Origin: a virus
Lineage: Duplodnaviria; Heunggongvirae; Uroviricota; Caudoviricetes
DNA length: 45,767 nt
IMG/VR virus record: IMGVR_UViG_2519103024_000003
Strand: one strand, 5' to 3'
The notes under the pieces were generated by a model. That model ran no database searches, was not told where the DNA came from, and saw only the letters and a program-made list of their open reading frames with translations. This document shows positions 1,205-45,767 of the stretch, in pieces (within the stretch, counting starts at the first letter, position 1; each line of letters starts with the position of its first letter). The translations under genes were made by a program, and so were the position numbers.

Positions 1205-1431
1205 AAAATAATCTCGGTGTGAGATGCTTTACGTCTTCCAAGCCCCCTTCCTTGCCGTAAATGGAAAGATACATCTAATTATAGAATTTATATGTTTTAC
1301 CCTACGGCAGTGCTGGCCATTCAATATCCTGTGCAGTTGACGTATCAACACGGTTCAGCAACACCCGATACTTCTTCCAGGCTTCCAGCAACGAGGTTTC
1401 TTCCTCCGTTGCATATACAGCTCACCTTTTT

Positions 1432-1725
1432 TCACCCACGATTAACCAACAGCCAGACCAGCAGACACGCCACCACCGGCACAGCAAAATCCATCAGGCT
1501 TGCCACATCCCACGCGCGCGGATCAAAACCGCCCCACCACGGCATATTCATTCGCTTGCCATGCCCGAACATTTCAATCCAGCGATATTCTGCCTGGGTG
1601 TGTTCACGCGCAATGAAGAACGTACAACCAGCTATCGCCCCGTAAGCCCAGTTCCCGGTAAAAAGACCAATCAGTAGCTGCGCAGCCACAGCACAAAGCG
1701 CATGAAGGAAAGGTGTTATATCCAT
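1432..1725 (-). CDS. Small predicted two-helix membrane protein, unknown function
   Basis: 97-aa ORF with two hydrophobic segments, immediately downstream of the tail-fibre-like gene on the same strand. Confidence 0.45.
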   Translation of the reverse strand: MDITPFLHALCAVAAQLLIGLFTGNWAYGAIAGCTFFIAREHTQAEYRWIEMFGHGKRMNMPWWGGFDPRAWDVASLMDFAVPVVACLLVWLLVNRG

Positions 1726-1735
1726 TACTCCTCCT

Positions 1736-2440
1736 TTATCCGATATCGCTTCGGGAAACGGATAACAACTTTAATTCTGACTCAAGTTCATCAACTCTTT
1801 CAGTCAGCTTCTGGATATGGTGAATCAGTGGAACAACCAGACGTTCGTACATTACACCTTCGGCAACAAGGCCATTGCTGGAAATAGCTTCCGGTGCATC
1901 ATCTTCGTTAGCTGGTCGCCAGTGTACAAACTGAGGGGCAATTTCTCCTACTTCCTCGGCAATCAATCCGTAGAATCCCCAGTCACGCCTGTCATTTTCG
2001 CATTGTGACCTGTACCACACAGGGCGCATCCTGAAAATGAGATCGGCGTGCTCTGAATCTATTGTCTCTACTGAATGTTTATAGCGGATAGACGATGTTG
2101 ACCGCAGCACAGACGAAATTGCGGGGTCAGGATTAAGATAAAGGTTTGCCGCCGCTGTAGTCGTGCCCAATCCCCACAAATAAAACGCTTCACGGCCAGT
2201 CAACGGGTAAAAATCTCCACCATAACGACCGCTTTCCAGAGCGTTCACTTCCAGTTTGTTTTTCAGCTTATTATCAACTTCAGTTTTTGTGTATCTGGTG
2301 CTGATATCCTGCTTTGCACTGGTCATATCAGCCTGAAGCGTTGATACTTTTCCGTTAATTGAGGAAATATCTTCCTTGGCTTTACTGACATCTCCCTTTA
2401 ACGTGGTGATGTCTCCTGGAATTACTGTCGATGTAGCCAT
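1736..2440 (-). CDS. Tail-fibre-like protein with C-terminal intramolecular-chaperone (S74-like) domain
   Basis: 234 aa; N-terminal coiled-coil-like segment; C-terminal motif (DWGFYGLIAEEV) typical of self-cleaving chaperone domains of tail fibres. Confidence 0.55.
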   Translation of the reverse strand: MATSTVIPGDITTLKGDVSKAKEDISSINGKVSTLQADMTSAKQDISTRYTKTEVDNKLKNKLEVNALESGRYGGDFYPLTGREAFYLWGLGTTTAAANLYLNPDPAISSVLRSTSSIRYKHSVETIDSEHADLIFRMRPVWYRSQCENDRRDWGFYGLIAEEVGEIAPQFVHWRPANEDDAPEAISSNGLVAEGVMYERLVVPLIHHIQKLTERVDELESELKLLSVSRSDIG

Positions 2441-2449
2441 TTGTCTCCC

Positions 2450-2731
2450 TCACATCCAGCCACGAAGTTGATGTTCAACTACAACCGCGTATTCATCGAA
2501 TATTAACGATTTTTTTGCATCATTAATGATGCGCACGTTTACAAAATATCCATCTTCCTTAACACATACCGGTTCGCCATCTTCAGTCAGTTCTCCGGTT
2601 TCTTTGTACACGTTACCTATCACGTCAATAAGAATATCATCCTGCATCGACTCGTCATCATAATAGCCAATGCTATCCATAAAGGCCGAAAAGTCGGCCC
2701 TGTCTGCAAATTTGAGTGTTAAATCTTTCAT
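2450..2731 (-). CDS. Small acidic protein, tail-fibre associated, unknown function
   Basis: 93-aa ORF whose start overlaps the stop of the stf C-terminal segment; no family recognised. Confidence 0.45.
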   Translation of the reverse strand: MKDLTLKFADRADFSAFMDSIGYYDDESMQDDILIDVIGNVYKETGELTEDGEPVCVKEDGYFVNVRIINDAKKSLIFDEYAVVVEHQLRGWM

Positions 2732-3666
2732 TAGATTGACTCCCCCATCTGAGCATCAGTCAATGCCTTGTGCCATATTCTGAAATTCCTGACATGACCA
2801 AATAAATGACGCAACCCGGCTGTAGTCTGGCCTCCAATACGGATAATTGCGGAGTTCTGAATATAGGACCATGTGGCTTTCTTTTCGCTGGATATACGCC
2901 CGTTACTTACTGAGCACGTAGACTGATCTGACTTTACACGCATCCCCATAACCATTTTTTCAAGCGATGCGTTTTCGTTTACCCGTCTGTTAGCCAAACC
3001 TATATCACAATAAGGAAATCCGTCGTAATCTGTTGAACGACCGAAGCCAAGAATAATAGCCGCTCCGGTTTGATGACCGCCGGTATCAAAAACACGCGGT
3101 GCTGCATTTGGCGTTTTATACCAGTTCTTATGTACCTCACAAAGAACCGTAAAAGGAAGATTATAAAGGTTATTCTTGATTGGGACTGTCACCATATCGC
3201 TTGCGCGAGTGCTTGCAGTTATATCAGTTACAATAAATGACGAAGCACTTGATCCACCTTCCACTTGTGGAGTTGCGATATCCAGATAGTCTCCAGATGC
3301 TGTACCTGAACCTTTTACAGGAGCGTATTGAACCATCGCACCAATCATGCTCTCTGTATCTAGTGCATTAATTGTAGCCTGATAGAAAATCCAACCAGTA
3401 ACCTCATCTTTTACAGCCTTTGCAATAATACGGTCTGCAGCAGTACCAGTTTTATCAATTACAAGTGTTGATAAATTGAGGTAAGCATCTCCCAAAAAAG
3501 TGTAAGTATAACCATCATGGTGTTCAAATCTTAAACGACACCTTATATTTTCAACATCACTTCTTACACGGCATGTAGACTGGCCCCCTGAATCTCCAGA
3601 CAACCAATATCACTTATTTAAGTGATAGTCTTAATACTAGTTTTTAGACTAGTCATTGGAGAGCAG

Positions 3667-4014
3667 ATGATTGATGTCTTAGGACCGGAGAAACGCAGAC
3701 GGCGTACCACACAGGAAAAGATCGCAATTGTTCAGCAGAGCTTTGAACCAGGGATGACGGTCTCCCTCGTTGCCCGGCAACACGGTGTGGCAGCCAGCCA
3801 GTTATTTCTCTGGCGTAAGCAATACCAGGAAGGAAGTCTTACTGCTGTCGCCGCCGGAGAACAGGTTGTTCCTGCCTCTGAACTTGCTGCCGCCATGAAG
3901 CAGATTAAAGAACTCCAGCGCCTGCTCGGCAAGAAAACGATGGAAAATGAACTCCTCAAAGAAGCCGTTGAATATGGACGGGCAAAAAAGTGGATAGCGC
4001 ACGCNNNNNNNNNN
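3667..4014 (+). CDS. insC: IS2 transposase OrfA (InsC), 3' end masked
   Basis: Translation [24 protein letters not shown]... recalled as IS2 InsC; runs into the N block. Confidence 0.8.
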
Positions 4015-4693
4015 NNNNNNNNNNNNNNNNNNNNNNNNNNNNNNNNNNNNNNNNNNNNNNNNNNNNNNNNNNNNNNNNNNNNNNNNNNNNNNNNNNNNNN
4101 NNNNNNNNNNNNNNNNNNNNNNNNNNNNNNNNNNNNNNNNNNNNNNNNNNNNNNNNNNNNNNNNNNNNNNNNNNNNNNNNNNNNNNNNNNNNNNNNNNNN
4201 NNNNNNNNNNNNNNNNNNNNNNNNNNNNNNNNNNNNNNNNNNNNNNNNNNNNNNNNNNNNNNNNNNNNNNNNNNNNNNNNNNNNNNNNNNNNNNNNNNNN
4301 NNNNNNNNNNNNNNNNNNNNNNNNNNNNNNNNNNNNNNNNNNNNNNNNNNNNNNNNNNNNNNNNNNNNNNNNNNNNNNNNNNNNNNNNNNNNNNNNNNNN
4401 NNNNNNNNNNNNNNNNNNNNNNNNNNNNNNNNNNNNNNNNNNNNNNNNNNNNNNNNNNNNNNNNNNNNNNNNNNNNNNNNNNNNNNNNNNNNNNNNNNNN
4501 NNNNNNNNNNNNNNNNNNNNNNNNNNNNNNNNNNNNNNNNNNNNNNNNNNNNNNNNNNNNNNNNNNNNNNNNNNNNNNNNNNNNNNNNNNNNNNNNNNNN
4601 NNNNNNNNNNNNNNNNNNNNNNNNNNNNNNNNNNNNNNNNNNNNNNNNNNNNNNNNNNNNNNNNNNNNNNNNNNNNNNNNNNNNNNNNNNNGT

Positions 4694-5092
4694 GAAACAG
4701 TACAGGACGTCATGCTGGGAGCGGTGGAACGCCGCTTCGGCAACGAGCTTCCGGCGTCTCCAGTAGAGTGGCTGACGGATAATGGTTCATGCTACCGGGC
4801 TAATGAAACACGGCAGTTTGCCCGGATGTTGGGGCTTGAACCGAAGAGCACGGCGGTGCGGAGTCCGGAGAGTAACGGCATAGCAGAGAGCTTCGTGAAA
4901 ACGATAAAGCGTGACTACATCAGTGTCATGCCCAAACCAGACGGGTTAACGGCAGCAAAGAACCTTGCAGAGGCGTTCGAGCATTATAACGAATGGCATC
5001 CGCATAGTGCACTGGGTTATCGCTCGCCACGGGAATATCTGCGGCAGCAAGCCAGTAATGGGTTAAGTGATAACAGGTGTCTGGAAATATAG
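4694..5092 (+). CDS. insD: IS2 transposase OrfB (InsD), C-terminal part only (5' end masked)
   Basis: C-terminal translation ...[19 protein letters not shown]...[14 protein letters not shown] recalled as IS2 InsD. Confidence 0.8.
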
Positions 5093-5619
5093 GGGCAAAT
5101 CCAGCATGAAATGGTCACATATTTTTCATCACCTGTGACATCAAACCCTTTACTGCCAGAAATCGTTACGATATTAATAGCACTTGTCTGACCAATAAGA
5201 GTATCTTTTACAGTAAATCTCCCATAAGTAAAATTAAAAGAATCCGTGGATATTTCTGTGAGTTCCAGATTGCCTGACTTATTCCATTTAGATGGATTTG
5301 TTGAATTAAGCAGAAGATTAGTTCTTTGCCCCTCAATAAGCAGGCCATCACGTTCAAATCGTGGCTCATCAATGGCAGCCTCTGTCAGCACACCAGATTT
5401 GTTAATATAGGTTGCTTTCGATGCACGTTTAAACTTAACAATCTTGTCGCCAGGCATCGTTATTTCGTCGTCACCAATAACAATCTTTTTATATGATGGC
5501 AAAAAGCCCGTAATCATATCCAGTGAATCGTTAAACGGTATCCACACATCAGGCAGCGGCTGTAAGACATATTTATACGGATCTGCTGCCTGGCTTGCAT
5601 ACTCTCTGGCTGCGTCTTC

Positions 5620-6250
5620 ACTTGCTTTTGCAGCGGTCTGGCTTGCAGCGGATGCTTTCGCCGAGTTCGCCGCTGCAGTCTCGCTTGTCTTTGCATTGGT
5701 TTCACTGGTTTTTGCTGCTTTTTGACTGTTGGCTGATGCAGTGGCAGAAGCAGCCGCCGCGCTTGCAGAACCAGCTGCAGCACTCTCGCTTTGGGCTGCT
5801 GCATCCTGACTGTTTTTCGCCGCAGTTTCGCTGGCTTTGGCATTCGTTTCGCTTGGTCTTCGCTGCCGTCTGGCTGGACTTTGCGTTAGTTTCACTCGTC
5901 TTCGCAGCTTTCTGGCTGTTAGCCGCAGCAGTTGCTGATCCAGCTGCTGAAGTCGCAGAACCGGCTGCCGCGCTCTCGCTTTGGGCTGCTGCAACCTGGC
6001 TGTTTTTTGCCGCAGTTTCACTGGCTTTGGCATTCGTTTCGCTTGTTTTCGCTGCCGTCTGGCTGGACTTTGCGTTGGTTTCGCTCGTCTTTGCGGCTGT
6101 CTCGCTATTTTTCGCGTTGGTTTCTGATTTTTTGGCTGCTGTCGCGGAGTTTGCCGATGCAGTCTGCGAGGACGCTGCCGCCTGTGCGCTGTTAGCTGCA
6201 TTTGTTTCTGAGGTTTTCGCCGCGTTCTTCGATGATGCCGCTGCAGTTTC
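5620..6250. repeat. Imperfect tandem repeats (about 190 bp period) inside stf, encoding Ala/Ser/Thr-rich SETNAK-type units
   Basis: Near-identical DNA blocks, e.g. ctggctttggcattcgtttcgctt at about 5832 and 6022; repeated peptide units in the translation. Confidence 0.65.
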
Positions 6251-6652
6251 GGATTTCTTTGCCGCTGCTGCGCTCTGAGAGGCGGCTTCGGCGTTGCGTG
6301 CCGCTTCTTCCACCATTGCCTCAAAACGACGCAATGCCTCCGGCATGACATCATCTTCCGTCATGGCACCGAGAAAATCATTCAGCGTACCTGGTCTGGA
6401 ACCTTCATAGACGGTAATGGTCCCGGCATGTGAAGGCGGAAAACCTTCAACCAGCAGGGTGACGCTGTACTGACCATACTCAACATCCATGCTGTAACGC
6501 CCGGCTTCATCCGGATTTTCAGAGGCCACCGTGTTCACCAGTACCGTGGTGCTGTTACGCTTTGCCTTCAGTTGAATAGTGCAGTTCTGTATTGGTTTTC
6601 CCGCACCATCTTTCAGCACACCTGAGATTTTTACTGCTGCCATATCCACTCC

Positions 6653-6682
6653 ACAAAAAAGCCCGCCTGAACCGGCGGGCTG
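6653..6682 (-). terminator. Rho-independent terminator after lom
   Basis: GC hairpin gcccgcc...ggcgggc followed by a T-run on the minus strand. Confidence 0.5.
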
Positions 6683-6707
6683 TCATAACACTGTGTTACC
6701 TGGCTAA

Positions 6708-7307
6708 TCAGAACTTATAACCGACACCCACGATGAAACCGTCAGTGCGCCAGTCGCCACTGCCGGAGCCTTCATAAGCAATATCAATGGCCACGGATTC
6801 GGTCGGGTTAAACTGCACGCCAGCCCCCCACGCCAGAGACGTGTTGCTGTGGCGACCGTCATCACTTCCGGTCAGCACATCGTGCTTTTTCCCCTTGTTG
6901 TCAGTTACGCGAAGATAATCCCCGGAGAAAGTCGACACACGGCTGTAAGCCACACCCGCCATCGCATACGCGCTGAACCATTCATTCACGCGCACAGACG
7001 GCCCCGCCATTACGCTGAACCAGCGGTTACGAACGGAATCTTCATGCCAGCGGGTATCGCTGTAACGGGTCAGCTGGCGATTCTTGTCTCCTGCATAGCT
7101 GAATGACGTCACCAGCCCCAGTGTGTCCGTAAACTCATAACGGTATTTCACGTTAATCCCGTTCAGATCATCACTGCCGGGGACGTTCGTCGAGGCATGA
7201 AGATACCCCGCGCTCAGCGTGGACTGATGTTCAGACGCCCATGCAGGCGCACCGGATACGGCCAGACAAATGGCTGCGGACAAAATGGCTGCACAAACTT
7301 TACGCAT
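6708..7307 (-). CDS. lom: Lom-family outer membrane beta-barrel protein (Ail/Lom)
   Basis: 199 aa with signal peptide and C-terminal ...GVGYKF; resembles lambda Lom; located between J and stf as in lambda. Confidence 0.85.
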   Translation of the reverse strand: MRKVCAAILSAAICLAVSGAPAWASEHQSTLSAGYLHASTNVPGSDDLNGINVKYRYEFTDTLGLVTSFSYAGDKNRQLTRYSDTRWHEDSVRNRWFSVMAGPSVRVNEWFSAYAMAGVAYSRVSTFSGDYLRVTDNKGKKHDVLTGSDDGRHSNTSLAWGAGVQFNPTESVAIDIAYEGSGSGDWRTDGFIVGVGYKF

Positions 7308-7329
7308 AATTACCTCTCGCTTTTCTGCA

Positions 7330-7356
7330 ATAAAAAAGGCGCCAATTCTGGCGCCC
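7330..7356 (-). terminator. Rho-independent terminator after J
   Basis: Hairpin ggcgcc-aattct-ggcgcc followed by a T-run on the minus strand. Confidence 0.5.
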
Positions 7357-7374
7357 GTATATGGGTTATAAAAT

Positions 7375-9631
7375 TCAGCTGATACTGATGCCTGCGGTGG
7401 CTTTCTTCATCACCACAACCAGCAAATCGCTGATACTTGCTGTGGGATACCAGTCATTTACCAGCCATGCTGACACCGAAAACTCCAGCGTCATGTGACC
7501 GTGACCGGCAGGCATATCAATAACGCCACTGTAAATCAGCGTATTATCCAGCGCGGTACGGTTATAAATTTCAGCACCGTTTTTCCGCACTATCAGACGG
7601 CATGAGGAGTAAATATCAGTATGCTCTCTCTCATGTTTAGCGCCGCTGAATGCCACCGCAGGAATAACAATCTGCCGGTCAAACGGCTGATCGTCATAAA
7701 CCCTGACGGTAATGGTCCCTGATGGCCACCGTTCCGGTGCACGGGAGTCCCGGGGGAAAGCTTTGCCCACTGTTTTAACGAGATCGCCTTCAATCTGGTT
7801 CGCGGACAGTTTTCCCAGAACCCGACAGTTCTCGTTAATCGTGACGTTGTTGAGCGTCCCGGAGTTCGCATTCACGTTACCGCTGATATCGGCATTTTTC
7901 GCCGTCAGCCGCCCATCCGGTGTCAGGGAAAATGCCGGAGGATTACCGCCGCTGGTAATGGTCGGAGCCGTCAGGCGTTTCAGGAACACGTCGTTCATGA
8001 ATATCTGATCGCCCTGACCAACAAACATTGGTCTTGTGTTGCCATTAGACGGATCAATAAACGCGATACGGTTAGCGGCAACCAGGAACTGGCTCAGTTT
8101 GCCTTCCTCCGTGTCCTCCATGCTGAGGCCAATACCCGCGACATAATGTTTGCCGTCTTTGGTCTGCTCAATTTTGACGCCCCACATGGCATTCCACTTA
8201 TCACTGGCGTCCTTCCACTCTTTCGAAAACTCCTCCAGTTTGCTGGCGTTATCCTCCGTCAGCTCGACTTTTTCCAGCAGCTCCTTGCCAAGATGGGATT
8301 CGGTTATCTGGCCTTTGAAAAAATCCAGGTAACCTTCCGCATCATCGCTCGCCCGACCAACAGCCTCCACGAATGCCGATTTGCCAACGGTGTTCACACT
8401 GCGAACGTAAAAATAATAATCATGGCCCGGCCTGATATTGATACTGGCAGCTATCCAGTACAGCGCCGTGCCAAGATAGCGGGCTGTGGTTTCAACCTGC
8501 CTGATATCCGCAATCCGTTTTTCCGAGAACCAGAACTCAAACTGTACCGTCGGGTCATAAACCGCAAGATGTGGCGTGGCGGTTATCTGAAAATAGCCCG
8601 GTGTCAGCTCAATCCGAGACGGCGCTGCCGGTGCGGCAATCCGGAACGATACCGATGCCGGATCGCCCTGCAGCCCCCACGCATTTACCGCCCGGACCGT
8701 CAGCATGTAACGCCCCAGCGCCAGTTGCGTGAAGCGGTATGTGGTTTCCGTCGTCCGGGCCGTGCTGACCAGCCGCTCACTGCCGTCATCCGCTGCCACG
8801 GTCAGGCGAAGCAGGAAGCTCACGCCCTTCACCACTTTCGGCGTGTCCCAGCGGGCCAGCACCTGATATTCCCCGCTGTCTGCGGTGACTTCGGCAGTCA
8901 GGTGCTGCACCGCTGGCGGCGTGACACCATTCACCGTGCCGCTCTGGTCGCCGTCAAAGTGCGCCCCGTTATCCACGATGGCCTCTTTCTCCGGTACATG
9001 CTGCACGGCAGTGATGGCATACGTGCCGTCGTCGTTCTCACGGATACTCACGCAGCGGAACAGGCGCTGGCGCAACGTCGGCAACTTCAGCCCCCACACG
9101 CTGTATTCAGCAACGCCGTCAGGAACACGGCTCACTTTCACCTTCACGCCGTCGGTGACGGACTGGACCTCCACGCTGACCGGATTACCCTCACCGTCAA
9201 CCAGGCTTATCAGCGTGGTGCCGGAGGATGGCAGCGTGATTTCACGGTCGAGCGTCAGCGTCCGGGTCTGGCTGTTCACCGCCAGCACGCGACCACCGAT
9301 GCTGATACCGGCATAGTCATCATCGCAGATTTCAATAACATCGCCCGGCACATGGCGAAGCCCTTCTGCGCCCACGCTGAAATCCACGGTCTGCGTTTCC
9401 AGCAGTTCCGTTTTAATCAGCCACAGCCCGGCTCGGTGTGCCTGCCCCCGACTGGTACAACCAAAGGCATCCATCTTCGTGACATTACGACCGTAACGGG
9501 CAATGGCCTGCGTATCTTCAACAAGCTCTGTCGCCGTCACCCAGCCGTTGTTCGGGTCAATCCAGTTCACCTCAACGGCATTATGGCGGTCCTTCAGGGC
9601 GCTGAAGCTGTAGCGGAACGGCGCGCCATCA
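7375..9631 (-). CDS. J: Tail tip / host specificity protein J, C-terminal about 750 aa (N-terminus in masked block)
   Basis: Long minus-strand ORF with repeated Ig/fibronectin-like segments, directly upstream of lom; its 5' part lies in the 9632-11830 N block. Confidence 0.8.
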
Positions 9632-11830
9632 NNNNNNNNNNNNNNNNNNNNNNNNNNNNNNNNNNNNNNNNNNNNNNNNNNNNNNNNNNNNNNNNNNNNN
9701 NNNNNNNNNNNNNNNNNNNNNNNNNNNNNNNNNNNNNNNNNNNNNNNNNNNNNNNNNNNNNNNNNNNNNNNNNNNNNNNNNNNNNNNNNNNNNNNNNNNN
9801 NNNNNNNNNNNNNNNNNNNNNNNNNNNNNNNNNNNNNNNNNNNNNNNNNNNNNNNNNNNNNNNNNNNNNNNNNNNNNNNNNNNNNNNNNNNNNNNNNNNN
9901 NNNNNNNNNNNNNNNNNNNNNNNNNNNNNNNNNNNNNNNNNNNNNNNNNNNNNNNNNNNNNNNNNNNNNNNNNNNNNNNNNNNNNNNNNNNNNNNNNNNN
10001 NNNNNNNNNNNNNNNNNNNNNNNNNNNNNNNNNNNNNNNNNNNNNNNNNNNNNNNNNNNNNNNNNNNNNNNNNNNNNNNNNNNNNNNNNNNNNNNNNNNN
10101 NNNNNNNNNNNNNNNNNNNNNNNNNNNNNNNNNNNNNNNNNNNNNNNNNNNNNNNNNNNNNNNNNNNNNNNNNNNNNNNNNNNNNNNNNNNNNNNNNNNN
10201 NNNNNNNNNNNNNNNNNNNNNNNNNNNNNNNNNNNNNNNNNNNNNNNNNNNNNNNNNNNNNNNNNNNNNNNNNNNNNNNNNNNNNNNNNNNNNNNNNNNN
10301 NNNNNNNNNNNNNNNNNNNNNNNNNNNNNNNNNNNNNNNNNNNNNNNNNNNNNNNNNNNNNNNNNNNNNNNNNNNNNNNNNNNNNNNNNNNNNNNNNNNN
10401 NNNNNNNNNNNNNNNNNNNNNNNNNNNNNNNNNNNNNNNNNNNNNNNNNNNNNNNNNNNNNNNNNNNNNNNNNNNNNNNNNNNNNNNNNNNNNNNNNNNN
10501 NNNNNNNNNNNNNNNNNNNNNNNNNNNNNNNNNNNNNNNNNNNNNNNNNNNNNNNNNNNNNNNNNNNNNNNNNNNNNNNNNNNNNNNNNNNNNNNNNNNN
10601 NNNNNNNNNNNNNNNNNNNNNNNNNNNNNNNNNNNNNNNNNNNNNNNNNNNNNNNNNNNNNNNNNNNNNNNNNNNNNNNNNNNNNNNNNNNNNNNNNNNN
10701 NNNNNNNNNNNNNNNNNNNNNNNNNNNNNNNNNNNNNNNNNNNNNNNNNNNNNNNNNNNNNNNNNNNNNNNNNNNNNNNNNNNNNNNNNNNNNNNNNNNN
10801 NNNNNNNNNNNNNNNNNNNNNNNNNNNNNNNNNNNNNNNNNNNNNNNNNNNNNNNNNNNNNNNNNNNNNNNNNNNNNNNNNNNNNNNNNNNNNNNNNNNN
10901 NNNNNNNNNNNNNNNNNNNNNNNNNNNNNNNNNNNNNNNNNNNNNNNNNNNNNNNNNNNNNNNNNNNNNNNNNNNNNNNNNNNNNNNNNNNNNNNNNNNN
11001 NNNNNNNNNNNNNNNNNNNNNNNNNNNNNNNNNNNNNNNNNNNNNNNNNNNNNNNNNNNNNNNNNNNNNNNNNNNNNNNNNNNNNNNNNNNNNNNNNNNN
11101 NNNNNNNNNNNNNNNNNNNNNNNNNNNNNNNNNNNNNNNNNNNNNNNNNNNNNNNNNNNNNNNNNNNNNNNNNNNNNNNNNNNNNNNNNNNNNNNNNNNN
11201 NNNNNNNNNNNNNNNNNNNNNNNNNNNNNNNNNNNNNNNNNNNNNNNNNNNNNNNNNNNNNNNNNNNNNNNNNNNNNNNNNNNNNNNNNNNNNNNNNNNN
11301 NNNNNNNNNNNNNNNNNNNNNNNNNNNNNNNNNNNNNNNNNNNNNNNNNNNNNNNNNNNNNNNNNNNNNNNNNNNNNNNNNNNNNNNNNNNNNNNNNNNN
11401 NNNNNNNNNNNNNNNNNNNNNNNNNNNNNNNNNNNNNNNNNNNNNNNNNNNNNNNNNNNNNNNNNNNNNNNNNNNNNNNNNNNNNNNNNNNNNNNNNNNN
11501 NNNNNNNNNNNNNNNNNNNNNNNNNNNNNNNNNNNNNNNNNNNNNNNNNNNNNNNNNNNNNNNNNNNNNNNNNNNNNNNNNNNNNNNNNNNNNNNNNNNN
11601 NNNNNNNNNNNNNNNNNNNNNNNNNNNNNNNNNNNNNNNNNNNNNNNNNNNNNNNNNNNNNNNNNNNNNNNNNNNNNNNNNNNNNNNNNNNNNNNNNNNN
11701 NNNNNNNNNNNNNNNNNNNNNNNNNNNNNNNNNNNNNNNNNNNNNNNNNNNNNNNNNNNNNNNNNNNNNNNNNNNNNNNNNNNNNNNNNNNNNNNNNNNN
11801 NNNNNNNNNNNNNNNNNNNNNNNNNNNNNN

Positions 11831-12099
11831 AAATCACTCTGCACCTGCAGCCGCCGGTCAGCCTCACTCAGCCAGGGCAGACCACCGGGATGACTGTGGA
11901 CCAGTGCCACAATCTCACCCTGCATCTCTGCCTGCAGCCAGTCCTCCGGAGCCATCCGGAAATAATCCTCCGGCTCACCGGAAATATTCACGCAGGGAAA
12001 ATATCTTTCCCCCTCCGGCGCTCTCACCACGAAGCCGCACGACTCCGCTGGCGCACATCGCCGGGCGTGCGCCAGAATCGCTGATTCTGTCTCTGTCAT
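11831..12099 (-). CDS. K: Tail assembly protein K, N-terminal part (JAB/MPN domain); rest masked
   Basis: MTETESAILAHARRCAPAESCGFVV...HSHPGG matches the lambda gpK N-terminus; the ORF continues into the N block. Confidence 0.85.
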
Positions 12100-12103
12100 G
12101 GGA

Positions 12104-12802
12104 TTACTGCGAAAGTTTGTTAATGGAAAGGAAGCCGCCAAAGTTGCCGACGTTATTGCGAAACTTACAGCCGCTCAGGCATTTGCTGCATTTATCCTTC
12201 GTGATATCGGACGTCGGCTGGTCATATTCATCCGCGACTGCCGGACCGTGATAACCGCACTCATCACCGCGATAGGTCCAGGTGCAGGTGTTGGCCAGCA
12301 TGATACGTCCCGGAAAAACAGCGCCGTCCGTTTCCGTCGGCGTGGACAGTACAAAAGAGGCACTCACCGCGCTCAGTTCGCTGCACTGCTCAATGCGCCA
12401 GCGGCTGATCACCTCCTGCTCCGGATCGGCGTCACTGTTTCCGTTGACGAAGTTCACCGCATCCAGAAAACGGGCGTAAACCTTACGCCGGACCACCGTT
12501 CCGCCGACCAGACTCTGCAGATCTTCCGCCATCCCGGTGACCATACCGTACAGGTTAGAAACCGTCAGTGTCGGACGGGCAGCACTGCCCTTGCCGTTCA
12601 GTTCAAATCCCGTCCCCTGAATGGGGTATACCTGATACTGCCGCCCCTGCCAGATAACCGGCTCACCTTTTTCGTTCTGCTCATTACAGAAAAAATAACG
12701 TTCACCACCGACCTCTGTCAGATCGATTTCCCAGAGCACCACCTGGGCTGACTGAGTGAGGCGTGTCGTCTCATGATGTGTTTCCTGTGGAATATCCTGC
12801 AT
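12104..12802 (-). CDS. L: Minor tail protein L
   Basis: 232 aa, closely resembles lambda gpL (VVLWEIDLTEVGGERYFFCNE...). Confidence 0.85.
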   Translation of the reverse strand: MQDIPQETHHETTRLTQSAQVVLWEIDLTEVGGERYFFCNEQNEKGEPVIWQGRQYQVYPIQGTGFELNGKGSAARPTLTVSNLYGMVTGMAEDLQSLVGGTVVRRKVYARFLDAVNFVNGNSDADPEQEVISRWRIEQCSELSAVSASFVLSTPTETDGAVFPGRIMLANTCTWTYRGDECGYHGPAVADEYDQPTSDITKDKCSKCLSGCKFRNNVGNFGGFLSINKLSQ

Positions 12803-27566: not shown

Positions 27567-27779
27567 TCAAAGTGCCACTACATGAACAGCTGCAGGGCCT
27601 TTAGGTCCGTTCTCAATACCAAATTCGACTTCCTGATTCTCAGTTAACGTTTTGAAATCGTTGCTCTGAATAGCTGAGAAATGCACAAACACATCTTTGC
27701 TACCATCTTTCGGCGTGATGAAACCAAAACCTTTTTCAGGGTTAAACCATTTCACTAAACCAGTCATTTTGTTAGACAT
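27567..27779 (-). CDS. cspI: Cold shock protein, CspA family (CspI-like)
   Basis: [23 protein letters not shown]... canonical cold-shock domain with RNP motifs. Confidence 0.85.
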
Positions 27780-28142
27780 CATTATTACCTTTTGAAGAAG
27801 TTAGCCCTTGGGCAGAATGGTCCGAAAAAAAATATCAGAGAGAAAAACCAACAAGGAAATCTCAAGAGGTACAAATAATAAAATTATAACAATGACTGCT
27901 TCAGATAATTTTGTAACAAACCAGAACACCATTAACGCATGATTAACCAACCATAGCAAGGATTACTTTTGTAAAGAAAAACACACGAATGAAACAATAG
28001 CTTTATTTATTAATAAAACGTGTCATTCTGTCTAATGACCTTTTATCTTACCCTTAAGATTTCAAGGATTTTGACTCATGGAAGAGTCCTTTTTATTTAA
28101 ATTTCACATTCAGCGCTAAAAATAATCCGATTTAATATTAAT

Positions 28143-29170
<1,028 letters not shown>

Positions 29171-30047: not shown

Positions 30048-30263
30048 TTACTCTCTTCTCGCAACCTTACGCCTGTCTTCTTTAATCTTGAAATAAAGGT
30101 TTGTCAGATACGTCAGCAGGCCAAAAACCAGACTACCCAGCACACCGATTGCAGCCCACTGTGACGGAGTTACTTTATCGAGTAACTGCAATGCCCAGAA
30201 ACCAGCATTACCAGCCGATGTGCCATAGGCGATACCTGTTGTTAACTTATCCATTGATTTCAT
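30048..30263 (-). CDS. Pinholin, phage 21 S-type, with dual-start motif
   Basis: 71 aa [18 protein letters not shown]...[17 protein letters not shown] closely matches the S21 pinholin; Met1/Met4 dual start. Confidence 0.85.
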
Positions 30264-31015: not shown

Positions 31016-31231
31016 TTAATCAGTAATTATGACATTTGCTGCTGCAGGACCTTTAGCACCACTCTCTACAGAGAAGGTAACCTTTTGACCTTCAAATAAG
31101 GTTCGAAAATTATCATTCTGAATCGCAGAAAAATGCACAAACACATCTTTACTACCATCAACAGGAGAAATAAAGCCAAAACCTTTATCAGCGTTAAACC
31201 ATTTTACTAAACCAGTCATTTTATTTGACAT
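31016..31231 (-). CDS. cspB: Cold shock protein, CspA family (CspB-like)
   Basis: [23 protein letters not shown]... cold-shock domain. Confidence 0.8.
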
Positions 31232-31531: not shown

Positions 31532-31744
31532 TTGTCCCGTAAAATGACAGGAATTGTCAAAACCTTTGACGGCAAAAGCGGCAAGGGTCTTATCACCCCA
31601 TCCGATGGTCGTATCGATGTCCAGCTTCATGTTTCAGCGCTCAATCTCCGCGATGCAGAAGAAATTACCACCGGATTACGCGTGGAATTTTGCCGGATAA
31701 ATGGTCTGCGTGGCCCTTCAGCTGCCAATGTTTACCTTTCATGA
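31532..31744 (+). CDS. cspF: Cold shock-like protein, CspF/CspH type
   Basis: [23 protein letters not shown]... resembles CspF. Confidence 0.75.
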
Positions 31745-42265: not shown

Positions 42266-42802
42266 ATGTCATTTATTAAAACTTTTTCCGGGAAGCATTT
42301 TTATTATGACAGGATAAATAAAGACGACATCGATATTAACGATATCGCGGTTTCCCTTTCAAATATCTGTCGCTTTGCCGGTCATCTTTCACACTTCTAC
42401 AGCGTCGCCCAACATGCGGTGCTTTGCAGCCAGCTGGTACCGCAGGAATTTGCTTTTGAAGCGTTAATGCATGATGCAACAGAAGCGTATTGCCAGGACA
42501 TCCCCGCACCACTGAAACGCTTTCTTCCTGACTATAAACGGATGGAAGAAAAAATAGACACAGTAATCCGTGAGAAATACGGGTTACCCCCGGTTATGAG
42601 TACACCCGTGAAATATGCCGATCTCATCATGCTGGCAACCGAACGCCGCGATCTCGGGCTTGAGGATGGCTCTTTCTGGCCAGTACTGGAAGGCATCTCT
42701 GCCACAGAGATGTTCAAAGTTATTCCACTGTCGCCAGGCCATGCCTACGGGATGTTTATGGAACGCTTTAACGAGTTATCGGAGTTACGCACATGCGCAT
42801 GA
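42266..42802 (+). CDS. YfdR-like HD-domain protein
   Basis: ATG at 42266 with GGAGAA SD; His/Asp motifs (HFYSVAQHAVL...HDATEAY) consistent with an HD fold. Confidence 0.6.
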   Translation: MSFIKTFSGKHFYYDRINKDDIDINDIAVSLSNICRFAGHLSHFYSVAQHAVLCSQLVPQEFAFEALMHDATEAYCQDIPAPLKRFLPDYKRMEEKIDTVIREKYGLPPVMSTPVKYADLIMLATERRDLGLEDGSFWPVLEGISATEMFKVIPLSPGHAYGMFMERFNELSELRTCA

Positions 42803-42836
42803 GTCTTTCAACTGAACAACCGCTGGAGGGGTAGCA

Positions 42837-43031
42837 ATGAGCAACTTAATGACAACAAAACAAGTCGCCGAATTCTGTGGCGTTTCAATATCGACGGTGC
42901 TTCGCTGGAACAGCGTAAACAGGAGGACAGGCCAGAAATACAGGCCAGATTTTCCAGATCCTGATATTAAATCCTGCCCAAATAAATGGGCATCACGCAA
43001 AATATACAGATTTGCTGGAGTTATTGAGTAA
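42837..43031 (+). CDS. AlpA/Xis-type excisionase or regulator (MerR-like HTH)
   Basis: 64 aa; LMTTKQVAEFCGVSISTVLRW is typical of AlpA-family HTH proteins. Confidence 0.65.
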   Translation: MSNLMTTKQVAEFCGVSISTVLRWNSVNRRTGQKYRPDFPDPDIKSCPNKWASRKIYRFAGVIE

Positions 43032-43305
43032 TGAGAGTTAGCCAAGAGGTGAGATAATATCCATCTATGGCACAGAACTAAACATAATCTGACTATATGC
43101 TCTGTGCCAAAAACAGATGTTATATCATGTATTGTATGCTCATCCTGCAAAATATAAATTCCGCAGATACCCCTTACCTCTGAATATTAATCCACAATGG
43201 ATGCGACAAAAAAGATTTTGAGTTGGCATCAGGCGAAATATTAATAATTATAATACCCCATGCACAATGCCATCTGAGTCATCATATCCTGGTCTCTATC
43301 AATAT

Positions 43306-44373
43306 TTATCTTGCCATCAGAAAAATCCAACACAAAGAAATGATGAAATTTCGGCGGAACAACTTTAGAGTAAAAGCAGAAATACTCATTATTCCTTTCA
43401 TATTGAAAATTAACGTATATTTTTTAATTTTTTTATTTTCCACCAGGTCCATAAACATTTTATTTAAATCTGACCTTTTACTTTCCTTGTCATCATCTTG
43501 AAGCTTAGGATCAAAGTAACGTATTAAGCAGTTTTCAATAATTCTCCCCTCATTATCAACATCAATTTCATCCAGTAGAGAATTTGAAATATTAAAGACC
43601 ACATTACATTTATTATTCAGAGATATAATCCTTGGATTAAATATACTAAAACAAACAAAAAAATCATTATCGTCATTTGAAACGCTATACAGCATCTTTG
43701 ATAAGCCACGGTGAATAAAATCAACAGGGCGCCGATGCGGATGACGTGTATATCCTACGTAATGCACTTCTGTATGAATTCCTAAATCAATATAATGTCC
43801 GTTTACGAAATCATGAACTGACATCACACATAAATTGCCATTTTCATATTCAATGTAGAGAAACTTCTCAGTTACTCTAACATTTGGAGTTACCTTCACT
43901 ACCCCATTCTGCGTAAACGTGCAAAAGGAATATTTTATCCGAAGCTTTCGCTCTTCTTTGCCAATCAACAGAGTGAATACTATATTTTTTGTGAATGGGT
44001 TATACCTAGGCTGTTTCTTGGTTGAAAACCTCACTTTTTTTCTTGAACCTAAGAAATAAATAAATCTCTTTTCACAGCTTTCCCTCGTATATTTTTCCAT
44101 AATTCTGAGATAGTTCTTTATTATCTTATTTGTTCTTATATCATCAGGAGGATTAATTATCATATCATACCAAATACAATCGGTGTTAATGAGATCAATC
44201 CACAATGACTTATCGGCTTCTGAGAAAACCACGTTAGAGTTTATAAAATCAAAGTTTCCGCGAGTCATAAAACACTTCATCACATTAAAAATCACCTGCA
44301 CATAATAAATTAAGTAGCAGAAGGTTCGCAAACCCTTGCTTCTGTTTGTGCTATGATATTTTTCATAATTCAT
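43306..44373 (-). CDS. AT-rich orphan protein (355 aa), unknown function
   Basis: Long ORF in a 25-30% GC island between xis and int; Lys/Asn/Ile-rich; no recognised domain. Confidence 0.6.
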   Translation of the reverse strand: MNYEKYHSTNRSKGLRTFCYLIYYVQVIFNVMKCFMTRGNFDFINSNVVFSEADKSLWIDLINTDCIWYDMIINPPDDIRTNKIIKNYLRIMEKYTRESCEKRFIYFLGSRKKVRFSTKKQPRYNPFTKNIVFTLLIGKEERKLRIKYSFCTFTQNGVVKVTPNVRVTEKFLYIEYENGNLCVMSVHDFVNGHYIDLGIHTEVHYVGYTRHPHRRPVDFIHRGLSKMLYSVSNDDNDFFVCFSIFNPRIISLNNKCNVVFNISNSLLDEIDVDNEGRIIENCLIRYFDPKLQDDDKESKRSDLNKMFMDLVENKKIKKYTLIFNMKGIMSISAFTLKLFRRNFIISLCWIFLMAR

Positions 44374-44531
44374 CGATTGGCATCCCTACATCCTTAGTCC
44401 CACAGTAACCCAATAAACCATCAAACTCCTGCCGACACCCCAAATACTGAAGCTACCGGTTAACGTAGTCTGGCTAAAAACCCAGTACACAAGGTATCCG
44501 CAGCGGACTGGCAGATATGATTACGCTCTGG

Positions 44532-45767
44532 CTACGCAAACTGTCCGTTGGAGATTAAGTCAGTACAAGTAACGATCGATTCAACCCTCTCCCACCATGC
44601 CCAGTAAGCTTTACGCTGTTCTTCTAGATAATCGCTCTTATCATAAACTTGCCATACACCTGGCAGTTTATGACCAAGCATTATTTCAGCAATATGAGGA
44701 GCAGTAAGATCAGAAAAGTTTGTTCGTGCTGTTCGTCTCAAATCATGAAGAGACCAATGAGGAAATTGATACCCCAAACGTCGCCATGCGAACTGCATTA
44801 AATTGTAAGGCAGCGACTGCAATGATGTCCGACCAACTGGCTCCCTGCTTCCTTCCTTAGTAAAAAGCATATCGGAACCGTTGTTCATAGAGATAACGTA
44901 TTTTATAAGCTCTTCAACCGGTTCAATAATGGGCCGCTTTAGCGGTTCGCCTGTTATGTCCCCAGTCTTATGTCGTTCTGGTGGTACAGTCCATACCTTA
45001 TTTATGAAATCAAAATCATCCACCCTAGCAGTAATTAGCTCTGAACTACGGCAACCAAAATGCAGCAATAGTTTAATGAAGGCTCGGTATTTAGGAACCA
45101 TTCGAGAACCATCGATCGCAGCATAAAGGATGTTAATTTCATCATGTGTCAGAAACCGTTTTTTCTGACCTTTACGGATATCCATATCTTTACCCGTGAT
45201 ATCCGACAGTGGGCGAGTTTCAATGAGCTTTCTCTTATACGCCCAGACATGAGCCTGCTTTGCGTTAATTAGCAATCGGTCTACTATTGCTGGAGTCTTG
45301 GTGCTAAGAGGCTCCAGGACTTCTAACCAATCATGCAATGTAGCTGCATCGTGAGGGATATTCCCGATTTTAGAGAACAGGTGCAGCTCAAACGAGCGGA
45401 GTATCTGTTCAGAACCTTTTTTATTTTTTACACAATATGCTTCATACCAGGCACGGATCACAGACTCTACCGTCATGGCTTCAGTAGCTTTTCGTTTTTC
45501 AGCCTGCTTGACTAATCGTGGATTGCGGCTTGACTCGAGTTCACCACGGAGACGGATAACTTCTTCTCTGGCCTCTTTTAATCCAGTTGCCGGGTAAGTT
45601 CCGATATCAAGGCGCTCACCTTTCCCTGCCCATTGATAACGATATTGGAACACTACGCGACCTTTCGGTGATACTCTGACAGACAGACCATCACGATCGG
45701 ATTTAACCAAAACCTTATCACGTTCCTTTCCAACGACTGAACGCAACCACGCATCAGACAGCGCCAT
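44532..45767 (-). CDS. int: Tyrosine-type site-specific integrase (P4-like)
   Basis: 411 aa; N-terminal MALSDAWLRS; C-terminal catalytic region with conserved Arg/His/Tyr context (HDLRRT..., ...LGH...Y). Start coincides with the window edge. Confidence 0.9.
   Translation of the reverse strand: MALSDAWLRSVVGKERDKVLVKSDRDGLSVRVSPKGRVVFQYRYQWAGKGERLDIGTYPATGLKEAREEVIRLRGELESSRNPRLVKQAEKRKATEAMTVESVIRAWYEAYCVKNKKGSEQILRSFELHLFSKIGNIPHDAATLHDWLEVLEPLSTKTPAIVDRLLINAKQAHVWAYKRKLIETRPLSDITGKDMDIRKGQKKRFLTHDEINILYAAIDGSRMVPKYRAFIKLLLHFGCRSSELITARVDDFDFINKVWTVPPERHKTGDITGEPLKRPIIEPVEELIKYVISMNNGSDMLFTKEGSREPVGRTSLQSLPYNLMQFAWRRLGYQFPHWSLHDLRRTARTNFSDLTAPHIAEIMLGHKLPGVWQVYDKSDYLEEQRKAYWAWWERVESIVTCTDLISNGQFA

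What the first reader, a model, noticed from the sequence alone, without database searches (positions are those of the whole stretch)
43040..44531. AT-rich orphan gene wedged between the excisionase and the integrase
The 355-aa ORF at 43306-44373 sits in DNA that is far more AT-rich than the rest of the prophage (about 25-30% GC in sampled stretches) and shows no similarity to any phage structural, lysis or regulatory family I recognise. It follows int on the same strand and is convergent with the early-left operon. The int-proximal end of a prophage is a recurrent site for horizontally acquired accessory genes such as abortive-infection or superinfection-exclusion factors. It contains an R-x5/6-H stretch (RHPHRRPVDFIH), but that is not enough to call a HEPN nuclease. 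This is my top candidate for an undescribed single-gene system.
Basis: partly seen in the sequence, partly recalled or inferred. Interest (0 to 1): 0.8.

Follow-up and report, generated by a model that had tools for sequence, protein, structure and literature searches.

The report
Frameshifted cryptic GIY-YIG nuclease, prophage cargo
The AT-rich gene next to the prophage integrase is a frameshifted copy of an unannotated 342-residue protein that contains a hidden GIY-YIG-type DNA-cutting domain and sits in a swap-in cargo slot, so it is a plausible but untested single-gene anti-phage nuclease that is probably broken in this copy.

Summary
The ORF and its AT-richness are real: 31.9% GC against 49.2 ± 6.3% for 1-kb windows, the lowest point in the window. 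The 355-aa reading is not the native protein. Codons 1-35 are an E. coli-only open frame; the family start is M36. A 1-bp deletion (A7 to A6, 43420-43425) replaces the last 59 residues of the intact 342-aa protein.

It is not an orphan. At least 215 clusters at 50% identity exist (PHROG 7779), none annotated, with no Pfam, NCBIfam or PADLOC model.

The gene is the only content of a 1.38-kb module in an int-xis slot that carries a dGTPase defence gene or other unknowns in sister prophages. Homologs sit beside type I R-M, Bil, RT and toxin-antitoxin genes.

The best reading is a stand-alone defence endonuclease, repeatedly inactivated in E. coli. Defence is inferred, not shown.

The parts
43122..44501 (.). 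Variable cargo module in the int-xis slot. It is AT-rich, about 1.38 kb, and contains only this gene and its flanks.
   Evidence: Homology to six prophages carrying other cargo ends at window 43092-43121 and resumes at 44502-44534. The GC trough is shown.
43306..44268 (-). The CDS as it stands in this window, read from the family-conserved start M36. It gives 320 aa, of which residues 1-283 are native and 37 are out-of-frame tail.
   Evidence: The exact 320-aa and 355-aa products exist in public assemblies.
43420..43425 (-). A6 homopolymer (T6 on the plus strand). This is the site of the 1-bp deletion relative to the A7 of intact copies, and it causes the frameshift after ORF residue 318.
   Evidence: The A6 allele occurs on two SNP haplotypes, each of which also exists with A7.
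43241..43419 (-). Out-of-frame remnant that encodes the last 59 aa of the intact protein, including the nearly invariant His and Phe (H345 and F347 in 377-aa numbering).
   Evidence: The intact stop in PV340573.1 maps to window 43241.
43480..43908 (-). Divergent GIY-YIG-like nuclease core, ORF residues 156-298. It is intact in this window.
43711..43761 (-). Core motif YVGYTRHPHRRPVDFIH (Y205, G207, T209, R215, H221).
   Evidence: These columns are invariant in A1/A2. They align to I-TevI VYVGSAKDFEKRW and EndoII VYIGKTKNLRKRI.
43498..43551 (-). Second motif EGRIIENCLIRYFDPKLQ (E275, E280, Q292). E280 aligns to the catalytic Glu of T4 EndoII and Q292 aligns to its invariant Asn.
   Evidence: E245 aligns to E126, which equals E118 of the 136-aa numbering, and Q257 aligns to N138. 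PDB entry 2wsh is the E118A mutant. Co-loss with Y/R/H is shown.
44302..44331 (-). Candidate sigma-70 promoter (TTGCGA-18-TATTAT, 9 of 12 matches), 34 nt upstream of M36 and inside the spurious 35-codon extension.
   Evidence: This is a consensus match only, and such sites are not enriched over shuffles.
42837..43031 (+). Left flank of the slot: a 64-aa xis-like HTH ORF.
   Evidence: Weak HTH_17/MerR/HTH_23 hits at E about 4e-4 to 9e-4. The homologous ORF is annotated as an HTH, MerR-family or DNA-binding protein in other genomes.
44532..45767 (-). Right flank of the slot: a tyrosine integrase of 411 aa.
   Evidence: Arm-DNA-bind_3 and Phage_integrase domains.

Best explanation
The locus is a one-gene cargo module in the variable slot between int and the xis-like gene of a lambdoid prophage. 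The prophage is about 99.9% identical to Escherichia phage PhiR63_1 and is integrated next to yjjG.

The native product is a 342-aa protein that starts at M36. Its centre, ORF residues about 156-298, is a strongly diverged GIY-YIG endonuclease core. This core keeps the YIG strand (Y205), the Arg (R215), the His (H221), the catalytic Glu (E280) and the Asn-equivalent (Q292). It lacks the canonical first 'GIY' tyrosine, and an 11-residue helix (sIHDFL) is inserted there. The core is packed between N- and C-terminal regions of unknown fold.

Inferred mechanism: the protein is a stand-alone DNA endonuclease expressed from the prophage or island, and it cuts invading phage or mobile-element DNA. 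No methyltransferase accompanies it, so self/non-self discrimination must come from the non-catalytic regions. That could mean modification-dependent recognition, as in the GIY-YIG enzyme PD-T4-3, or recognition of a DNA structure or an infection trigger.

In this window the gene carries an A7-to-A6 frameshift that removes the conserved C-terminal 59 residues, so this copy is most likely inactive. Such inactivation has happened repeatedly in E. coli, which fits a costly or self-damaging nuclease.

Shown here: the anatomy, the frameshift, the family, the fold and motif relationship, and the slot variability. Inferred: nuclease activity, the defence role, the mode of discrimination, and loss of function.
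For: Frameshift and start.

Family size and lack of annotation.

Sequence:
- Pfam GIY-YIG is the only recurrent family, hitting 9 of 90 divergent members with best E 1.8e-4, while no other family hits more than 2.
- The Pfam hits start at the YIG strand.
- hhalign against an EndoII family profile gives E 3.1e-4. The permissive alignment pairs R, N, the catalytic Glu and the terminal Asn.
- The real score is 31.5, against 100 column shuffles at 12.9 +/- 2.5 with a maximum of 21.3.

Active-site behaviour: Y, R, H, E, E, N and Q are lost together in about 14-16 of 90 sequences. Those sequences keep the structural residues D202, Y251/F252, H310 and R76, and all but one keep R80.

Cargo and defence context:
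- The module edges are sharp.
- The same slot holds a PADLOC dGTPase in sister prophages.
- Homologs lie beside HsdRMS and a McrA-like SBD-HNH gene.
- Homologs lie beside a C5-MTase/DUF4928/Vsr cassette.
- Homologs lie beside BrxR, BilABCD and two RT genes.
- Homologs lie beside CcdAB and PIN genes.
- Homologs lie beside CTD6/MC2 genes and a transposase.

Repeated inactivation: A6 occurs on two haplotypes that both also exist with A7. There is also an IS1 insertion and a 3' truncation, and truncated Shigella products.
Against: No phenotype, expression or nuclease data exist.

Every sequence link to GIY-YIG is below curated thresholds. The two Pfam hits inspected score 15.0 and 13.7 bits against a gathering score of 22.6. 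hhalign probability is only 39-41%. HMM searches of PDB sequences found nothing.

The canonical first Tyr is absent. The isolated core did not model well, with pLDDT 70.

Four of the ten contexts examined outside E. coli show no defence neighbours: Arcobacter, Budviciaceae, Serratia plymuthica and Cronobacter.

The co-loss statistics are inflated by shared ancestry.

Recurrent inactivation is equally expected under relaxed selection on a useless gene.
Confidence: 0.55

Rival explanations
1. It is a free-standing GIY-YIG homing endonuclease, a selfish gene. It would cut sister prophages that lack it at the int-xis junction and be copied in by repair, with no benefit to the host.
For: The closest fold and profile relatives are phage enzymes: T4 EndoII and I-TevI. 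The gene is an AT-rich single-gene insertion with sharp edges between conserved phage genes. It has a patchy, horizontally transferred distribution.
Against: It is found in only 1 of 50,697 deposited phage genomes. Most homologs lie in chromosomal islands beside R-M, Bil, RT or TA genes rather than in phage genomes. No NUMOD, HTH or zinc-finger DNA-binding module was detected, and the nuclease core is central rather than N-terminal. The same slot carries several unrelated cargoes, including a dGTPase, which is hotspot behaviour rather than a homing site.
Confidence: 0.1
2. It is an infection-triggered abortive-infection toxin. The nuclease would be held inactive by its own N- and C-terminal regions and, once a phage product is sensed, would degrade host as well as phage nucleic acid, killing the cell.
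For: It is a single gene with no partner. The large non-catalytic regions are conserved even in the subclade that lost the catalytic residues: H310, R76 and R80 are kept. Some homologs neighbour toxin-antitoxin genes. Recurrent inactivation fits a dangerous protein.
Against: Nothing here distinguishes this from direct restriction of foreign DNA. No sensor-type domain (NTPase, TPR, STAND) was detected. This is a sub-variant of the best explanation rather than an exclusive rival.
Confidence: 0.2
3. It is a decaying, functionless prophage gene. In this reading the family once had a role unrelated to defence, for example a lytic-cycle nuclease serving the phage as EndoII serves T4, and the E. coli copies are eroding under relaxed selection.
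For: The window copy is frameshifted. The A6 allele is common, listed in 65 blocks of the collection. IS1-disrupted and truncated copies exist. The SD before M36 is weak compared with other genera. The promoter scan shows no enrichment.
Against: None of the roughly 58 full-length copies listed in complete RefSeq E. coli genomes carries the A6 deletion. Intact E. coli copies are 98-100% identical to one another. The family is conserved full-length from Enterobacterales to Campylobacterota with invariant catalytic residues, which implies purifying selection. A host-DNA-degrading enzyme would be self-destructive for a temperate phage with unmodified DNA (inference).
Confidence: 0.12
4. It is a HEPN-type RNase that acts through the R-x5-H motif.
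Against: The motif directly follows a beta-strand carrying YVG-T and aligns to the YIG-Arg segment of I-TevI and EndoII. The predicted region is alpha/beta, not a four-helix bundle. No HEPN Pfam or PADLOC hit was found in 133 members scanned. Seven GIY-YIG structures outrank the HEPN hit.
Confidence: 0.03

Closest known systems
T4 endonuclease II (DenA), a GIY-YIG enzyme, PDB 2wsh
   Different: EndoII is a 136-aa single-domain enzyme of a lytic phage that degrades host cytosine-containing DNA. This protein is 342 aa, with about 120 extra N-terminal and about 80 extra C-terminal residues. It lacks the first-motif Tyr, has an 11-residue insertion between strands 1 and 2, and is carried by a temperate prophage and by chromosomal islands.
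PD-T4-3, a single-gene GIY-YIG anti-phage system. Vassallo et al. 2022 (PMC9519451) report a GIY-YIG nuclease among their defence systems. PDB 9u75 is described as a 5hmC-specific restriction endonuclease.
   Different: No sequence relationship was detected: none of the window protein or 90 family members hits a PADLOC PD-T4-3 model. The architecture and length differ. The substrate specificity of the present family is unknown.
SNIPE, a membrane-bound GIY-YIG defence nuclease (PMC13190303)
   Same: It is a GIY-YIG nuclease used for anti-phage defence in E. coli, with non-catalytic regions that provide the self/non-self logic.
   Different: SNIPE has an N-terminal transmembrane helix, DUF4041 and a C-terminal GIY-YIG domain. 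Here there is no DUF4041 hit, and the only hydrophobic stretch lies in the E. coli-specific 35-codon extension that is probably not translated (KD maximum 1.46).
Prophage and satellite defence hotspots (P2/P4 hotspots, PMC9122126 and PMC13586616)
   Same: Conserved flanking genes bracket a slot with interchangeable, AT-rich, often single-gene cargo that includes known defence genes. Here the known example is a dGTPase.
   Different: This slot is the int-xis junction of a yjjG-integrating lambdoid prophage, not the P2 or P4 hotspots described in those papers. Most of its cargoes are unannotated.
PHROG 7779
   Same: The window protein matches this PHROG at E 8.7e-204 over ORF residues 36-327.
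   Different: The PHROG has no assigned function. The match stops at profile position 292 of 342 because of the frameshift.

Membership tests
GIY-YIG nuclease superfamily | Small alpha/beta fold shared with I-TevI, UvrC-N, EndoII, Eco29kI and Hpy188I | tested here: met
GIY-YIG nuclease superfamily | Second motif 'YIG', followed 8-10 residues later by a conserved Arg | tested here: met
   Y205-V-G-x-T and R215 are invariant among close members. The Y-x9-R spacing equals that of I-TevI Y17-R27. The segment is aligned by hhalign to I-TevI and EndoII.
GIY-YIG nuclease superfamily | First motif 'GIY' with a conserved Tyr, 10-11 residues before YIG | tested here: not met
   There is no conserved Tyr in the preceding strand. 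An 11-residue insertion (sIHDFL helix) separates the strands. The Pfam alignments begin only at profile position 13-14.
GIY-YIG nuclease superfamily | Catalytic Glu and downstream Asn in the C-terminal helix | tested here: met
   E280 (family E245) aligns to EndoII E126, which is E118, the residue mutated in 2wsh. Q292 aligns to the invariant N138. The spacing is the same at 12 residues. This comes from a permissive alignment, so it is supportive rather than conclusive. These residues are co-lost with Y, R and H.
GIY-YIG nuclease superfamily | Score above the Pfam PF01541 gathering threshold (22.6 bits) | tested here: not met
   The window protein gives no hit. One of 43 and 9 of 90 members hit at E 0.012 to 1.8e-4. 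The two hits inspected score 15.0 and 13.7 bits.
GIY-YIG nuclease superfamily | Metal-dependent endonuclease activity | not testable with these tools
   This needs purified protein and DNA cleavage assays.
HEPN RNase | Rx4-6H motif placed in an all-alpha four-helix bundle | tested here: not met
GIY-YIG homing endonuclease (I-TevI / Seg type) | N-terminal GIY-YIG domain with a C-terminal NUMOD, HTH or zinc-finger DNA-binding module, and recurrence in phage genomes or introns | tested here: not met
   The core is central. No DNA-binding module was detected. SegG gives no meaningful alignment. The protein is found in only 1 of 50,697 phage records.
Type II R-M GIY-YIG enzymes (Eco29kI, Hpy188I) | An adjacent cognate DNA methyltransferase | tested here: not met
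   The 1.38-kb module holds one gene. No methyltransferase neighbour is conserved across the 10 contexts. The Salmonella C5-MTase belongs to its own DUF4928/Vsr cassette.
Known anti-phage systems (PADLOC-DB v2, including PD-T4-3) | A significant match to a system's HMM | tested here: not met
   There are 0 hits for the window protein. Ninety divergent members give only singleton hits at E 0.0016 or weaker.
Prophage defence-hotspot cargo | Conserved flanks, interchangeable cargo, and at least one known defence gene among the alternatives | tested here: met
   int and the xis-like flank are shared at 84-96% identity. At least six different cargoes occupy the slot. One of them is a PADLOC dGTPase at E 3.5e-105.
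Prophage defence-hotspot cargo | A demonstrated anti-phage phenotype | not testable with these tools
Brenes & Laub 2025 (PMID 40409266), the likely source of PhiR63_1, is not held.

The most novel reading that the evidence does not exclude
The family is a new single-protein anti-phage defence system. Its nuclease is a cryptic GIY-YIG core that lacks the first catalytic tyrosine and is embedded in a fold with no solved or annotated relative. In E. coli the A7 tract near the 3' end would act as a contingency (ON/OFF) switch for a costly prophage nuclease. That would explain why the same frameshift appears on two haplotypes that both also exist intact. A catalytically dead subclade that keeps the non-catalytic regions would then point to a second, nuclease-independent function such as a sensor or a decoy.
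Probability: 0.12. Interest if true: 0.65.

Novelty: new variant of a known kind. Interest (0 to 1): 0.42.

Why it matters
If the intact allele defends, it adds an unannotated single-gene nuclease family to the defence catalogue. The family has at least 215 clusters and no Pfam, NCBIfam or PADLOC model, so current defence finders miss it. It would also mark the int-xis junction of yjjG-integrating lambdoid prophages as a defence hotspot whose other four cargoes (413-aa, 428-aa, 239-aa, and a 160+150-aa pair) are equally unknown and worth testing.

The diverged core, which keeps the YIG/Arg/His/Glu residues but has no GIY tyrosine, would be informative about the minimal GIY-YIG catalytic set.

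For annotation, the practical lesson is that the 355-aa ORF is a frameshift allele with a spurious 5' extension.

The finding is not a new principle, because stand-alone GIY-YIG defence nucleases (PD-T4-3, SNIPE) are already known.

Tried and rejected
- Direct family scans of the window protein. Pfam gave only NNH2 at E 0.058, and NCBIfam and PADLOC gave nothing.
- HMM searches of PDB sequences with the 43- and 90-member profiles. The only result was a spurious vestitone reductase hit at E 1.
- Foldseek of the whole model against PDB and BFVD. There were no hits at E 0.001 or better, and the top alignments are meaningless global ones with rmsd of about 20 A or more. The afdb50 library was unavailable.
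- Single-sequence hhalign to I-TevI, EndoII and SegG. Only the YIG-Arg motif aligned, and SegG gave nothing.
- The HEPN reading. Rejected, as set out in the membership test.
- A membrane anchor in the 35-codon extension. Rejected because the extension is E. coli-specific, it is disordered in AF2, and its KD maximum is 1.46.
- The idea that the frameshift is a sequencing error. Rejected because the exact product is on 50 contigs and listed in 65 blocks.
- Literature. No paper mentions PhiR63_1, WP_225092812, XSB43253, A0A8T6QGQ4 or phrog_7779. The DefensePredictor supplements do not list WP_225092812.
- Promoter and terminator scan. No enrichment over shuffles.
- tRNA scan. None found.
Full report
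OBSERVATION.

It lies downstream of a 411-aa tyrosine integrase (44532..45767, minus strand). It is convergent with the plus-strand genes yfdP, yfdQ and yfdR and with a 64-aa ORF (42837..43031) that has weak HTH_17/MerR hits.

The ORF has 31.9% GC. One-kb windows, after removing two masked N runs, average 49.2% with sd 6.3, and the minimum of 31.8% falls on this gene. Two other AT-rich islands exist at 26.1-28.4 kb and 30.2-31.6 kb. So the gene is the most AT-rich spot in the window, but not the only one.

IDENTITY OF THE WINDOW.

The region is 99.9% identical to Escherichia phage PhiR63_1 (PV340573.1, propagated on ECOR13). It is equally close to prophages integrated next to yjjG/rimI/holD in 61 of 5,426 complete E. 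coli genomes. About 700 genomes share the integrase, but only 62 carry this gene.

THE ORF AS READ IS NOT THE NATIVE PROTEIN.

First, the window has T6 at 43420-43425 where PhiR63_1 and strain 06-00048 have T7. On the coding strand this is an A7-to-A6 deletion. The reading frame changes after ORF residue 318. The last 59 residues of the intact protein are replaced by 37 unrelated ones. The displaced coding remnant is 43241-43419.

Second, the 35 N-terminal codons are probably not translated. Four observations support this:
- The PHROG profile matches from residue 36.
- PGAP calls a 342-aa product, and all homologs start at the equivalent Met.
- AF2 gives residues 1-35 pLDDT below 50.
- In 7 of 9 other genera an in-frame stop lies 3-9 codons upstream of that Met, with a Shine-Dalgarno sequence 6-10 nt before it.

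The frameshift is not a sequencing error. The exact 355-aa product is on 50 contigs, the 320-aa call is on 20, and the index lists the 355-aa product in 65 blocks of the collection. The A6 allele occurs on two SNP haplotypes, and each haplotype also exists with A7. The deletion therefore arose at least twice or moved by a short double crossover. None of the roughly 58 full-length copies in complete RefSeq genomes has it. Other disruptions also occur: an IS1 insertion, a 3' truncation, and truncated Shigella products.

THE FAMILY.

The protein is not an orphan. A word-indexed search found 47 clusters. An exhaustive profile search found 215 representatives at 50% identity among 1.84 billion proteins. 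Nearly all are 300-350 aa, cover the full length and carry no fusions.

Members occur in Escherichia, Shigella, Salmonella, Cronobacter, Klebsiella, Serratia, Proteus, Budviciaceae, Robbsia, Arcobacter, Psychrobium and Pseudomonadales. Every source name is 'hypothetical protein'. There is no Pfam, NCBIfam or PADLOC model. The only family hit is PHROG 7779, function unknown, at E 8.7e-204.

WHAT THE PROTEIN IS.

The alignment shows an invariant block, HYVGYT-x2-P-x2-RP-x4-H-x-G, followed downstream by N, E-G-x-I-I-E and YF-x4-Q. I recognised this from memory as GIY-YIG-like and then tested it.

(b) Pfam. GIY-YIG (PF01541) hits 1 of 43 close members and 9 of 90 divergent members, with best E 1.8e-4. 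No other family hits more than 2 of the 90 divergent members. Two inspected hits begin at profile position 13-14, the YIG strand, and score 15.0 and 13.7 bits, below the gathering score of 22.6.

(c) Profile-profile comparison. Using real T4 sequences, the family profile aligns its YVG-Arg segment to EndoII at E 0.0021 and to I-TevI at E 0.029. Against a 23-member EndoII family alignment the result is E 3.1e-4 with probability 39%.

A permissive alignment runs over 115 columns, family 121-263 against EndoII 15-143. It pairs:
- the Arg;
- family N229 with invariant N112;
- E245 with E126, which is E118 of the 136-aa numbering (assuming the 144-aa annotation starts 8 codons upstream) and the residue mutated in the 2wsh E118A structure;
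- Q257 with invariant N138.

The Glu-to-Asn/Gln spacing is the same in both, at 12 residues.

As a control, 100 column shuffles of the EndoII alignment score 12.9 +/- 2.5 with a maximum of 21.3, and the reversed alignment scores 8.9. The real score is 31.5.

(d) Internal test. In about 14-16 of the 90 divergent sequences, Y170, R180, H186, E240, E245, N229 and Q257 are lost together. Those sequences all keep D202, Y251/F252, H310 and R76, and all but one keep R80. Shared ancestry inflates the p-values. Even so, the pattern is what an active-site set shows when a subclade becomes catalytically dead.

NEGATIVE RESULTS.

- There is no conserved first-motif tyrosine, and an 11-residue helix is inserted there.
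- HMM searches of PDB sequences and Foldseek searches of PDB and BFVD found nothing.
- The isolated core modelled poorly.

I conclude that the protein contains a strongly diverged GIY-YIG-like nuclease core, with confidence of about 0.8. It cannot be filed as a member by curated thresholds.

CONTEXT.

Homology to six prophages that carry other cargo ends at 43092-43121 and resumes at 44502-44534. The swapped module is therefore about 43122-44501 and contains only this gene.

The alternatives in the same slot are a dGTPase (PADLOC E 3.5e-105) and four cargoes with no Pfam or PADLOC hit: 413 aa, 428 aa, 239 aa, and a 160 + 150 aa pair.

Outside E. coli the gene is always solitary. Its neighbours are:
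- Klebsiella: between HsdRMS and an McrA-like SBD-HNH gene.
- Salmonella: next to a C5-methylase/DUF4928/Vsr cassette, with a conjugation gene (TraC) nearby.
- Robbsia: between BrxR-BilABCD and two reverse-transcriptase genes.
- A pseudomonad: beside CcdAB and PIN.
- Proteus: beside CTD6/MC2 genes and a transposase.
- Arcobacter, Budviciaceae, Serratia and Cronobacter: no telling neighbours.

The gene is in only 1 of 50,697 phage records. On plasmids it is in one Serratia conjugative plasmid plus a few A. baumannii records.

MECHANISM.

I commit to the following. The native 342-aa protein is a stand-alone DNA endonuclease that serves as prophage- or island-borne defence against incoming phages or other mobile DNA. 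No methyltransferase accompanies it, so discrimination must reside in the N-terminal (about 120 aa) and C-terminal (about 80 aa) regions. The options are modification-dependent cutting, as in PD-T4-3, or recognition of a DNA structure or an infection trigger.

The window's allele keeps the whole catalytic core. It loses the conserved C-terminal 59 residues, including a His and a Phe (H345, F347) that stay conserved even in the catalytically dead subclade. It is therefore probably inactive. Repeated inactivation in E. coli fits a costly nuclease, but it equally fits relaxed selection.

Nuclease activity, the defence role, the mode of discrimination and the loss of function are all inferences.

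RIVALS.

The rivals I considered are a selfish homing endonuclease (0.10), a decaying functionless gene (0.12) and a HEPN RNase (0.03). An abortive-infection variant of the main model (0.20) cannot be separated from direct restriction with these data.

NOVELTY AND SCORE.

Stand-alone GIY-YIG defence nucleases are already known: PD-T4-3 (PMC9519451) and SNIPE (PMC13190303). This would therefore be a new variant of a known kind. The family is unannotated and has an atypical core and unknown accessory regions.

No paper in the library mentions the protein. The paper most likely to have tested it, Brenes & Laub 2025, could not be read.

Interest is moderate at 0.42. The candidate is credible and testable, and the slot itself looks like a useful hotspot. 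Against that, there is no phenotype, the principle is not new, and the copy in this window is a frameshift allele.

Noticed in passing
window 4005-4691 and 9632-11830: There are two runs of N, of 687 and 2199 bases. They create artificial long ORFs on both strands (for example 7375..12141 and 8146..12084) and distort composition statistics unless they are removed.
   Followed up: partly
window 27567-27782 (-), 31016-31231 (-), 31532-31744 (+): Three CspA-like cold-shock protein genes of 70-71 aa ([13 protein letters not shown]...) lie in the other two AT-rich islands, flanking the lysis cassette. The cassette comprises a holin-like ORF at 30048-30263, a lysozyme-like ORF at 28637-29170, and an Rz-like ORF at 28143-28640 with an embedded ORF at 28193-28489. 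My assignments come from reading the translations only.
   Followed up: no
window 43420-43425; loci L022-L031: The A7-to-A6 frameshift occurs on two SNP haplotypes that both also exist with the intact A7 tract, so all four combinations are present. This suggests recurrent slippage at the tract and possibly ON/OFF switching. None of the roughly 58 full-length copies in complete RefSeq E. coli genomes carries A6, yet the A6 product is listed in 65 blocks of the large assembly collection.
   Followed up: partly
L012:718-1959(-), L013:907-2193(+), L014:696-1415(-), L015:508-990(-) and 1032-1484(-): Sister prophages carry four other cargoes in the same int-xis slot: 413 aa, 428 aa, 239 aa, and a 160 + 150 aa pair. 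None has a Pfam or PADLOC hit. A fifth alternative (L011:664-1890) is a PADLOC dGTPase. The unknown cargoes are further candidates for uncharacterised accessory or defence genes.
   Followed up: partly
family members P0105, P0112, P0116, P0118, P0123, P0140, P0144, P0149, P0161, P0169, P0177: A divergent subclade has lost the putative catalytic Tyr, Arg, His and Glu together, but it keeps the N-terminal SRxKVRF motif, D202, YF251-252 and the C-terminal His. It is probably a catalytically dead branch with a retained non-nuclease function. I did not examine its genomic contexts.
   Followed up: no
window 42785-43150 (-): The PhiR63_1 record annotates a 121-aa minus-strand ORF here as a hypothetical protein. 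That ORF overlaps the plus-strand 64-aa xis-like HTH ORF (42837-43031), which other genomes annotate instead. PGAP annotates neither in strain 06-00048. The plus-strand HTH reading is better supported, but only weakly.
   Followed up: partly
L019 (Klebsiella variicola) 1-9892: This is a compact defence island. It contains type I R-M genes (HsdS, HsdM, HsdR), the family member, Tlde1-domain and Hcp genes, and a ScoMcrA-like SBD-HNH gene.
   Followed up: no
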